Assembly: GCA_013288885.1 (NCBI GenBank)
Contig: JABDBA010000003.1
Location: forward strand, 31,869-95,868
Direction of reading: 5' to 3'
Length of the DNA: 64,000 nt
Source of the DNA: Gammaproteobacteria bacterium
Lineage (GTDB): Bacteria > Pseudomonadota > Gammaproteobacteria > JABDBA01
The notes under the pieces: model-generated
Database searches by the model: none
Seen by the model: the letters and a program-made list of their open reading frames with translations, nothing else
Told to the model about the DNA's origin: nothing
Part shown: positions 5,821 to 6,615 of the stretch, one piece after another
Layout of the letters: each line of letters opens with the position of its first letter
How positions within the stretch are numbered: position 1 is the first letter of the stretch
Program-made: the position numbers and the translations under genes

Positions 5821-6615
5821 ATGCAAACAAATTTCATTAAGCAATTACGTAAAAAACACAACCTGACGCAAGAATACATCGCCTCAGAATTAGAAATGTC
5901 GCGCCCTACCTATCTGCAAATAGAACATGGGGAGCGTGATTTAAACGACTTAACTATCACAGAAGCTAAAAAACTGGCAAAGATATTTAATCTTTCACTT
6001 GAACAACTATTACAACAAAAACAACCTACTGTTATTGAAAATGTTGTTACACGTCAAAAACCAGCTAAAATCAAATCAGAAGAAATCCGCATCAGCATTC
6101 CGCAAGAACGTGCCGATAAATTCAAACAAGTATTGCTCTATATTTTAAAAAAAGTGGGCGGCAAACCCAATGTGGGTATGACAGTATTATACAAATTGCT
6201 TTATTTCATCGATTTTGATTATTACGAAAAATACGAAGAACAATTGATGGGTTTAGCCTATATAAAAAACCATCATGGGCCAACACCGATATTATTCAAA
6301 AAACTCATCGACAAAATGCTAACAAAAGGCGAAGTAGAAGAAATAAAAAGCAAATTTTATCGCTATCCACAAACCAAATATTTGCTCAACCCATCCATAG
6401 AGCCAAATTTAACAATTATCAACGGTCAAGAAAAAGAACACATCGACTGGGAACTGCAACGTTTATCCGACCTTTCTGCCACAGAATTATCTGAAATATC
6501 CCACCGGGATGTACCCTGGCTCACAGCAGAAGACGGCAAACCCTTAGATTATGAATCCGTTTTTTACCGTACTACTGAAACGTCGGTGCGAAAACCATTA
6601 ATTTCGTTAATTTAG
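5821..6615 (+). CDS. Fusion of an XRE-family HTH to a Panacea domain (DUF4065/SocA-like), antitoxin-type
   Basis: N-terminus is an XRE HTH (LRKKHNLTQEYIASELEMSRPTYLQIEHGERDLN). C-terminus carries the Panacea signature (KPNVGMTVLYKLLYFIDFDYY...HHGPTP). Confidence 0.75.
   Translation: MQTNFIKQLRKKHNLTQEYIASELEMSRPTYLQIEHGERDLNDLTITEAKKLAKIFNLSLEQLLQQKQPTVIENVVTRQKPAKIKSEEIRISIPQERADKFKQVLLYILKKVGGKPNVGMTVLYKLLYFIDFDYYEKYEEQLMGLAYIKNHHGPTPILFKKLIDKMLTKGEVEEIKSKFYRYPQTKYLLNPSIEPNLTIINGQEKEHIDWELQRLSDLSATELSEISHRDVPWLTAEDGKPLDYESVFYRTTETSVRKPLISLI

What the first reader, a model, noticed from the sequence alone, without database searches (positions are those of the whole stretch)
5821..6615. XRE-HTH fused to a Panacea (DUF4065) antitoxin domain next to a dead higB; possible partner swap
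Panacea domains neutralise many unrelated toxins and normally sit directly beside their toxin gene. This one is fused to an N-terminal XRE HTH. Its only downstream neighbour, 73 bp away, is a HigB/Gp49-like toxin gene that is pseudogenised, and that gene is followed by its own intact HigA antitoxin. Two explanations fit. The Panacea protein may have been a second antitoxin for the HigB-like toxin. Alternatively its cognate toxin may have been lost, leaving an orphan or autoregulatory antitoxin. Upstream and divergent lies the TumE/zeta-like operon, which gives a dense TA hotspot.
Basis: partly seen in the sequence, partly recalled or inferred. Interest (0 to 1): 0.6.

Follow-up and report, generated by a model that had tools for sequence, protein, structure and literature searches.

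The report
Orphaned HTH-Panacea antitoxin, toxin deleted
This gene is the surviving antitoxin half of a widespread two-gene toxin-antitoxin module whose toxin gene has been deleted here; the broken higB next door belongs to a separate module, so this is ordinary toxin-antitoxin decay and not a new pairing.

Summary
Window 5821-6615 encodes a 264-aa XRE-HTH plus Panacea (PF13274) protein. Downstream lie a Gp49/HigB gene with one in-frame TAA and an intact HigA.

The "second antitoxin / partner swap" reading is not supported. This protein belongs to a highly conserved family (65-73% identity across Patescibacteria, Legionellales and other phyla). In 70 of 80 genomes examined, its gene is followed at the 3' end by a 110-139-aa HigB-2/RelE-like toxin gene, nearly always overlapping. 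The two closest relatives also carry that toxin. This is probably toxin cluster T14 of Kurata et al. 2022, which was predicted but never tested.

In the window, homology stops after codon 258, exactly where the toxin's ATG sits. The last six codons are foreign, and no trace of the toxin exists in the 64 kb.

The higB-higA pair has its own conserved promoter/operator. It stands alone, without a Panacea gene, in three other genomes.

The orphan keeps 64 of 65 family-conserved residues and its promoter with two operator boxes. It is probably still an expressed, self-repressing protein with nothing to neutralise in cis.

The island also holds a 5'-truncated TumE, so three toxins are dead or missing while their three antitoxins remain intact. 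Interest is low.

The parts
5821..6615 (+). panA: orphan antitoxin gene, 264 aa, XRE HTH plus linker plus Panacea domain
   Evidence: ORF; Pfam HTH_3 and SocA_Panacea; 7,304 homologues, 65-73% identical; keeps 64 of 65 columns that are at least 95% conserved in toxin-bearing members
5836..6009 (+). XRE-type HTH domain (aa 6-63). It carries a 3-aa insertion (LND, about nt 5941-5949) that is absent from the 16 aligned homologues
   Evidence: Pfam HTH_3 E 1.4e-11; alignment A1; AF2 pLDDT 73-88 over this part
6187..6519 (+). Panacea (DUF4065, PF13274) domain, aa 123-233
   Evidence: Pfam 61.5 bits against a cut-off of 25.7, profile positions 1-112 of 113; identity to the family consensus is at the 93rd percentile of toxin-bearing members
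6595..6615 (+). Foreign 3' tail (PLISLI plus stop) that replaces the family's acidic tail (Y-D-x-x-D-E-D). The deletion junction lies after codon 258, exactly where the cognate toxin's ATG sits in homologues
   Evidence: C-terminal alignment and codon view
5772..5800 (+). Sigma-70-type promoter of panA, TTGTAA-17-TATAAT
   Evidence: Best promoter-like site in 5400-7600, 10 of 12 matches; same architecture in homologous loci
5749..5789 (.). Two putative operator boxes (5749-5765 and 5773-5789; family motif TGWMAA-N5-TTWACA), 24 bp apart. The second overlaps the -35 hexamer and spacer
   Evidence: Exact motif just upstream of panA in 35 of 83 loci, against 0.24 expected per 64 kb; window has two one-mismatch copies at the same spacing; 21-nt inverted repeat 5745-5765 / 5773-5793
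6616..6687 (+). Spacer. About 40 nt are unassigned, followed by higBA's own promoter/operator (TTGTTT 6650-6655, palindrome ATACCCAATAGGATAT 6660-6675, TATAAT 6673-6678). No ORF of 20 aa or more on the + strand
   Evidence: Alignment with three independent higBA loci; ORF list; inverted repeat
6688..7035 (+). higB pseudogene (Gp49 family, RelE/ParE superfamily). A single nonsense codon TAA at 6832-6834 replaces a conserved Gln
   Evidence: Translation; Pfam Gp49 E 3.7e-20; intact 115-aa homologues 77% identical, with Q at that site in 17 of 18
7013..7306 (+). higA: intact 97-aa XRE-HTH antitoxin of the separate higBA module
   Evidence: Pfam HTH_3 E 6.4e-14; same 23-nt overlap with higB as in homologous loci
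5480..5686 (-). TumE toxin remnant, 68 aa. Lacks roughly the first 21 profile positions; the ORF starts directly after a TAG
   Evidence: Pfam TumE positions 22-80 of 81; upstream frames
5059..5487 (-). HVO_A0114-type winged-helix protein, the antitoxin partner of TumE; intact
   Evidence: Pfam PF25212 E 5.6e-22
4529..5059 (-). Zeta-toxin-like P-loop protein, 176 aa
   Evidence: Pfam Zeta_toxin E 1e-10

Best explanation
Window 5821-6615 is the antitoxin gene (panA) of a two-gene PanAT toxin-antitoxin module that has lost its toxin.

In the intact module, an XRE-HTH-Panacea antitoxin gene is followed by a 110-139-aa HigB-2/RelE-like toxin gene. That gene's ATG lies inside panA codons 259-260, so the two genes usually overlap by 5-17 nt. 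In this genome a deletion or replacement removed the toxin gene together with the last six panA codons. The new 3' end reads into unrelated DNA, and about 40 nt further on an independent higBA cassette begins.

Inferred mechanism of the intact module:
- The HTH dimer binds two 17-bp boxes (TGWMAA-N5-TTWACA, 24 bp apart) that overlap the -35 region of the panA promoter, and so represses the operon.
- The Panacea domain binds and neutralises the toxin directly.

Inferred present state: panA is still transcribed from its intact promoter and still represses itself, but has no toxin to neutralise in cis. It is either a recent relic or is kept because it protects against incoming copies of the same module (anti-addiction).

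Shown here: domain content, the family's conserved partner, absence of that partner, the junction position, conservation of the promoter and boxes, and the independence of higBA.

Inferred only: DNA binding, neutralisation, expression and any current benefit.
For: - Domains.
- Family and partner: 70 of 80 genome loci carry a full-length partner at the panA stop, nearly always overlapping it; 4 more carry remnants.
- The closest relatives, P0003 and P0004 (70-71% identity), have an overlapping 126-129-aa partner.
- The partner is HigB-2/RelE-like. A diverse profile hits V. cholerae HigB-2 structures at E 4.8e-5. PF06296 RelE is the most frequent weak Pfam hit. A low-confidence model has HigB2 as its top Foldseek match. 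JGI names some members RelE.
- No remnant of the partner in any frame of the 64 kb. No + strand ORF of 20 aa or more in the spacer.
- Homology ends after K258, which is the position of the toxin ATG.
- 64 of 65 conserved residues are kept, and the Panacea region is at the 93rd percentile of similarity to the consensus.
- Promoter and operator boxes are conserved.
- Kurata et al. 2022 (PMC8832971) show that PanA proteins form complexes with their toxins, that 343 PanAs carry an HTH, and that antitoxin-first order is usual. Their Dataset S1 lists toxin cluster T14 (HHpred HigB-2, 99.73%) with HTH-PanA, antitoxin-then-toxin order and overlaps of -8 to -17 nt in Saccharibacteria and others.
- Orphan antitoxins are common in bacterial genomes (PMC7192599).
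Against: - Only 64 kb of the genome was available, so a toxin copy elsewhere cannot be excluded.
- The time of the loss cannot be estimated, because the nearest known homologue is only 73% identical. Intactness of panA therefore does not separate recent loss from selection.
- The 3-aa insertion in the HTH and the replaced C-terminal tail could impair function.
- Structure prediction of the protein was of low confidence (pLDDT 59.5), so the Panacea fold rests on the HMM match alone.
- Identity of the family with Kurata's T14 cluster was inferred from architecture and taxa, not from sequence comparison.
Confidence: 0.85

Rival explanations
1. Partner swap or second antitoxin. The Panacea protein neutralised, or still regulates, the adjacent Gp49-type HigB, forming a three-gene panA-higB-higA unit.
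For: Same strand and only 72 nt apart. No terminator-like site between the genes. Panacea clades frequently exchange toxin partners (PMC8832971). Both the lost partner and Gp49 belong to the RelE/ParE superfamily.
Against: higBA has its own antitoxin and its own promoter/operator, conserved in three unrelated loci. Those loci have no Panacea gene. None of the 80 panA loci contains a homologue of this higB. hhalign finds no similarity between the cognate toxin family and this HigB (probability 0.65%). The panA 3' end is visibly broken at the old toxin start and not adapted to a new overlap.
Confidence: 0.04
2. The orphan panA is kept by selection. It acts either as an anti-addiction or immunity gene that neutralises incoming copies of the same PanAT module, or as a domesticated XRE transcription factor. 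This extends the best explanation and does not exclude it.
For: 64 of 65 conserved residues are intact, and the Panacea region is closer to the family consensus than in 93% of toxin-bearing members. The promoter and both operator boxes are retained. Four further toxin-less loci (L014, L015, L026, L028) and two loci with dead toxins (L022, L041) also keep a full-length panA. The module is very widespread and mobile, so re-exposure is plausible. The anti-addiction idea for orphan antitoxins appears in the literature (PMC7192599).
Against: Intactness is equally expected after a recent deletion. No dN/dS estimate or population data could be obtained. The C-terminal tail, including a Tyr conserved in at least 95% of members, is lost. 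Neighbouring toxins are also decaying, which fits general erosion of the island.
Confidence: 0.25
3. The cognate toxin still exists elsewhere in the genome and is neutralised in trans.
For: Only 64 kb were available. Some taxa carry several Panacea genes (PMC8832971).
Against: No match in any frame of the window. In 70 of 80 genomes the pair is tightly linked, which argues against split arrangements.
Confidence: 0.05
4. Assembly or sequencing artefact. The toxin deletion and the higB stop codon are errors.
For: The source appears to be a single sequencing project, since the protein clusters have one member each.
Against: A separate assembly (Logan) of a public run is identical over 14,615 nt, including the junction and the TAA.
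Confidence: 0.02

Closest known systems
PanAT systems: Panacea/DUF4065 antitoxins with diverse toxins (Kurata et al. 2022, PNAS, PMC8832971). The closest match is their predicted, untested toxin cluster T14 (HHpred HigB-2) paired with HTH-PanA in Saccharibacteria, Cryosericum and Pedobacter
   Same: Panacea domain above the Pfam cut-off. N-terminal HTH, as in 343 listed PanAs. In homologues, the same antitoxin-then-toxin order with overlaps of 5-17 nt and a HigB-2/RelE-like partner. The same taxa (Saccharibacteria and other Patescibacteria) carry the family.
   Different: The window copy has no toxin and a replaced C-terminal tail, so it is an orphan and not a PanAT pair. Sequence identity with the T14 entries was not checked, because no accession look-up was possible.
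SocAB of Caulobacter (type VI: the SocA Panacea protein hands the SocB toxin to ClpXP)
   Same: Shares the Panacea domain, for which the Pfam family is named.
   Different: No HTH in the SocA description (from knowledge of the family). The partner of this family is HigB-2/RelE-like; SocB is described as a replication inhibitor. The adaptor mechanism cannot be tested here.
HigBA modules of the Gp49 (PF05973) / XRE-HTH type
   Same: Window 6688-7306 has exactly this two-gene layout, with the same 23-nt overlap and the same promoter/operator as intact homologues.
   Different: higB carries a nonsense codon at a conserved Gln. This module is a neighbour of the Panacea gene, not its partner.
Orphan antitoxins and anti-addiction modules (for example the survey of Klebsiella pneumoniae, PMC7192599)
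   Same: An antitoxin gene left without its toxin, with the non-toxin side of its original context (the promoter side) retained.
   Different: No evidence here that the orphan protects against anything.

Membership tests
PanA (Panacea-domain antitoxin, PF13274) | Panacea/DUF4065 domain detected above the curated threshold | tested here: met
   61.5 bits against a cut-off of 25.7; profile positions 1-112 of 113
PanA (Panacea-domain antitoxin, PF13274) | Encoded within 100 nt of a conserved toxin partner (criterion of Kurata et al.) | tested here: not met
   Met in 70 of 80 homologous loci, but the window has no partner. The adjacent higB belongs to another module.
PanA (Panacea-domain antitoxin, PF13274) | Panacea fold in a structural model | tested here: inconclusive
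   AF2 mean pLDDT 59.5, with the Panacea part largely below 70. No solved Panacea relative detectable by sequence in the PDB. The afdb50 library was unavailable.
PanA (Panacea-domain antitoxin, PF13274) | Binds and neutralises its toxin | not testable with these tools
   Needs co-expression and pull-down experiments
Kurata et al. PanAT toxin cluster T14 | HTH-PanA first, HigB-2-like toxin second, small negative intergenic distance | tested here: met
   True for the family: overlaps of 5-17 nt and a HigB-2 profile hit at E 4.8e-5, compared with Dataset S1 rows. Sequence identity with the listed accessions was not tested.
Autoregulating XRE-HTH type II antitoxin | HTH domain plus palindromic operator overlapping its own promoter | tested here: met
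   HTH_3; conserved boxes and promoter. Actual binding not testable here.
HigBA (Gp49 / XRE-HTH) | Intact Gp49 toxin ORF | tested here: not met
   In-frame TAA at codon 49
HigBA (Gp49 / XRE-HTH) | Downstream overlapping HTH antitoxin and conserved operator | tested here: met
SocAB type VI system | SocB-type partner and ClpXP adaptor function | not tested
   The family's partner is HigB-2/RelE-like. SocB was not compared directly.

The most novel reading that the evidence does not exclude
The orphan HTH-PanA is maintained by selection as an immunity (anti-addiction) gene against re-invasion by the very abundant, highly conserved HTH-PanA/HigB-2-like module. More generally, this low-GC island is a store of live antitoxins (PanA, HigA, TumA-like) whose toxins have all been disabled.
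Probability: 0.2. Interest if true: 0.45.

Novelty: new member of a known kind. Interest (0 to 1): 0.22.

Why it matters
The value is mainly corrective. The Panacea gene does not need an exotic explanation.

It gives a clean, base-pair-resolved example of how a toxin-antitoxin module decays: the toxin is removed from its start codon onward, while the antitoxin, promoter and operator stay intact. It sits in an island where two further toxins are disabled and their antitoxins survive.

As a by-product, the work shows that this HTH-PanA/HigB-2-like module is one of the most conserved and widespread PanAT families, with thousands of copies at 65-73% identity across phyla and a particular abundance in Patescibacteria. 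The family has a recognisable two-box operator and is still experimentally untested.

Tried and rejected
- My first neighbour count from greedy ORF picking gave a partner in only 43 of 80 loci. That was an artefact of start-codon choice. A profile search of six-frame translations corrected it to 70 full-length partners plus 4 remnants.
- Pfam and NCBIfam gave no significant family for the partner toxin.
- A profile from the two mixed subtypes (A3) lost the HigB-2 hit. A shallow profile (A2) gave E 0.011. Only the diverse profile A5 reached E 4.8e-5.
- Both AlphaFold models were of low confidence (pLDDT 59.5 and 56.0). The Foldseek result is therefore only a hint.
- The afdb50 library was not available.
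- hhalign of the partner family against the window's HigB found nothing.
- A viral-contig scan found only three weak partial matches, so the module is not typically phage-borne in that collection.
- The source organism could not be identified.
- I checked upstream genes that abut panA in some loci as a possible conserved third gene. They differ from locus to locus.

Full report
**1. Observation**

The ORF at 5821-6615 (+) encodes 264 aa. Pfam finds an XRE-type HTH (HTH_3, aa 6-63, E 1.4e-11). It also finds a full-length Panacea domain (SocA_Panacea PF13274, aa 123-233, profile positions 1-112 of 113, 61.5 bits against a cut-off of 25.7).

Seventy-two nucleotides downstream, 6688-7035 encodes a Gp49/HigB-like protein (PF05973, E 3.7e-20). 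It is interrupted by one in-frame TAA at 6832-6834. Next comes an intact 97-aa XRE-HTH HigA at 7013-7306, which overlaps higB by 23 nt.

Divergent upstream genes are TumE, an HVO_A0114-type protein and a Zeta_toxin-like protein. A second assembly of a public run is identical over 14.6 kb.

**2. The family and its real partner**

The protein has 7,304 database relatives. The best are 65-73% identical over the full length and come from Patescibacteria/Parcubacteria, Saccharibacteria, Legionellales, other Gammaproteobacteria, Desulfobacterales, Nitrospirota and others. This is an unusually conserved, horizontally spread gene.

I fetched 80 genomic loci. A first crude ORF-based count suggested a partner in 43 of 80. 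That undercounted because of start-codon choice.

I then built a profile of the downstream ORF and searched all six frames. Seventy of the 80 loci carry a full-length 110-139-aa gene on the same strand at the panA stop. In nearly all of them it overlaps the stop by 5-17 nt; in a few it starts 7-12 nt after the stop, and in L042 panA itself is disrupted. Four more loci have remnants or frameshifts (L022, L041, L045, L058), and four have none (L014, L015, L026, L028).

The two closest relatives of the window's protein (70-71% identity) also have the overlapping 126-129-aa partner.

**3. What the partner is**

It has no Pfam or NCBIfam family above threshold. A profile built from diverse representatives (695 clusters at E <= 1e-3; alignment A5) matches the solved Vibrio cholerae HigB-2 toxin at E 4.8e-5 over the C-terminal catalytic half.

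Supporting hints:
- PF06296 (RelE) is the most frequent weak Pfam hit.
- A low-confidence AlphaFold model (pLDDT 56; helix-helix followed by four strands and a helix) has HigB2 as its best Foldseek match.
- JGI names some members RelE.

Kurata et al. 2022 list in Dataset S1 a toxin cluster T14. Its HHpred best hit is HigB-2 (99.73%). It is paired in antitoxin-then-toxin order, with distances of -8, -11 and -17 nt, with HTH-bearing PanA proteins in Ca. Saccharimonas, TM7, Cryosericum and Pedobacter, and it is marked as not tested. The architecture and taxa fit, so this is probably the same family. I could not compare the sequences themselves.

**4. What happened in the window**

No trace of the partner exists in any frame of the 64 kb. 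There is no + strand ORF of 20 aa or more in the spacer.

The window's protein matches the family through K258. It then reads PLISLI-stop where the family has the conserved Y-D-x-x-D-E-D tail. In homologues the toxin's ATG lies within codons 259-260 (TAT GAC). Homology therefore ends exactly at the toxin start.

On the other side, alignment with three independent higBA loci shows that the higBA cassette, including its promoter and a palindromic operator (ATAyCCnATnGGATATAAT, window 6660-6678), begins at about 6635. Only about 40 nt are unassigned, far too little for a 330-420-nt toxin gene. The toxin gene and six panA codons were deleted or replaced.

**5. State of the orphan**

Of 65 columns that are at least 95% conserved among toxin-bearing members, the window keeps 64. 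The single deviation, Y259P, lies in the replaced tail.

By domain, the HTH is at the family median of similarity to the consensus, and the Panacea region is at the 93rd percentile. There is no sign of decay. A 3-aa insertion (LND) in the HTH loop is unique among the 17 aligned sequences.

Upstream, the family shares a promoter/operator layout. The 17-bp motif TGWMAA-N5-TTWACA occurs exactly, immediately upstream of panA, in 35 of 83 loci, against 0.24 expected per 64 kb. It often occurs as two copies 24 bp apart.

The window has two one-mismatch copies at 5749-5765 and 5773-5789, with the same spacing. They form a 21-nt inverted repeat that overlaps the best promoter-like site of the region, TTGTAA-17-TATAAT at 5772-5800. 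I infer that the gene is still expressed and autorepressed. This has not been shown.

**6. The higB neighbour**

Intact homologues (up to 77% identical, all about 115 aa) have Gln at the stop position in 17 of 18 sequences. The lesion is therefore a single CAA-to-TAA change.

In three other genomes the same higB is followed by an overlapping HigA and has no Panacea gene nearby. None of the 80 panA loci contains a homologue of this higB. L028 has a different Gp49 gene 1.5 kb away on the opposite strand. hhalign finds no similarity between the cognate toxin family and this HigB.

higBA is a separate module. The second-antitoxin and partner-swap readings are not supported.

Partner swapping does occur in Panacea clades. 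Two other toxin-less members of this family are followed at 9-39 nt by different genes: DUF2971 in L028 and a weak AbiJ_NTD4-like gene in L015. Those would be better places to look for a swap.

**7. Island context**

The stretch 3400-7450, between the dcw cluster (mraZ) and rnpB (9467-9832), has 35.8% GC against 42% for the window.

The TumE ORF covers only profile positions 22-80 of 81 and starts directly after a TAG. Three toxins are therefore missing or disabled (PanT deleted, HigB nonsense, TumE 5'-truncated), while their three antitoxins are intact.

This is the order of decay expected for toxin-antitoxin modules, because an antitoxin can only be lost safely after its toxin. Across the family the same asymmetry holds. 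Seven loci have a dead or missing toxin with a full-length panA (the window, L014, L015, L026, L028, L022, L041). One locus (L042) has a disrupted panA with a full-length toxin.

**8. Mechanism and confidence**

The best explanation is an orphaned, probably still autoregulating HTH-PanA left after deletion of its HigB-2-like toxin (confidence about 0.85).

Whether it is merely a recent relic or is retained, for example as an anti-addiction gene as discussed for orphan antitoxins in PMC7192599, cannot be decided with these data.

**9. Novelty**

HTH-PanA fusions, PanA pairing with RelE/HigB-2-like toxins, and orphan antitoxins are all documented. This is a degenerate member of a known kind, predicted but experimentally untested. 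Interest is low. The family as a whole would be a reasonable target for experimental work because of its extreme conservation, its abundance in Patescibacteria, its defined operator and its untested status.

Noticed in passing
window 5480-5686 (-): The TumE toxin ORF is only 68 aa, matches Pfam TumE positions 22-80 of 81, and begins (TTG) directly after a TAG. It is probably a 5'-truncated toxin next to an intact HVO_A0114-type antitoxin (5059-5487).
   Followed up: partly
window 3400-7450: A low-GC island (35.8% against 42% for the window) lies between mraZ and rnpB and is packed with toxin-antitoxin genes. All three recognisable toxins paired with an antitoxin are missing or disabled, while their antitoxins are intact. 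The zeta-like gene (4529-5059) looks intact.
   Followed up: partly
window 5941-5949: A 3-aa insertion (LND; near-duplicate GATTTAAAC / GACTTAACT) lies in the HTH loop of the Panacea protein. It is absent from the 16 aligned homologues. Its effect on DNA binding is unknown.
   Followed up: no
window 7526-9343 (+): A 605-aa ORF (called as 599 aa in the Logan assembly) has no Pfam or NCBIfam match. The exact sequence from the TTG start is not in the protein collection.
   Followed up: no
window 9467-9832 (-): Bacterial RNase P RNA class A (340 bits). Several long ORFs listed across it are spurious.
   Followed up: yes
window 3495-4240 (+): A 194-aa MarR-like/winged-helix protein is followed immediately by a 53-aa ORF with no family. 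On the opposite strand, a 62-aa ORF (4289-4477) lies downstream of the zeta-like gene. These may be further small toxin-antitoxin-like pairs.
   Followed up: no
L042:4001-5141: This is the one family member in which panA appears disrupted (an ORF covering only 190 aligned aa) while the toxin is full-length. That is the opposite of the usual decay order. It may be a MAG sequencing error or an inactive toxin.
   Followed up: no
L015:4038-4919 and L028:4847-6037: Two toxin-less members of the same PanA family are followed, on the same strand at 39 and 9 nt, by unrelated genes: a weak AbiJ_NTD4-like gene of 293 aa and a DUF2971 gene of 396 aa. These are candidate genuine partner swaps. L028 also has a convergent Gp49 gene 1.5 kb downstream.
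   Followed up: partly
L002-L081, about 20-80 nt upstream of panA: A family-wide operator motif, TGWMAA-N5-TTWACA, usually occurs as two copies 24 bp apart flanking or overlapping a TTGACA -35 hexamer. About six loci lack it and instead have an upstream gene that abuts panA within 2-4 nt. Those upstream genes differ between loci.
   Followed up: partly
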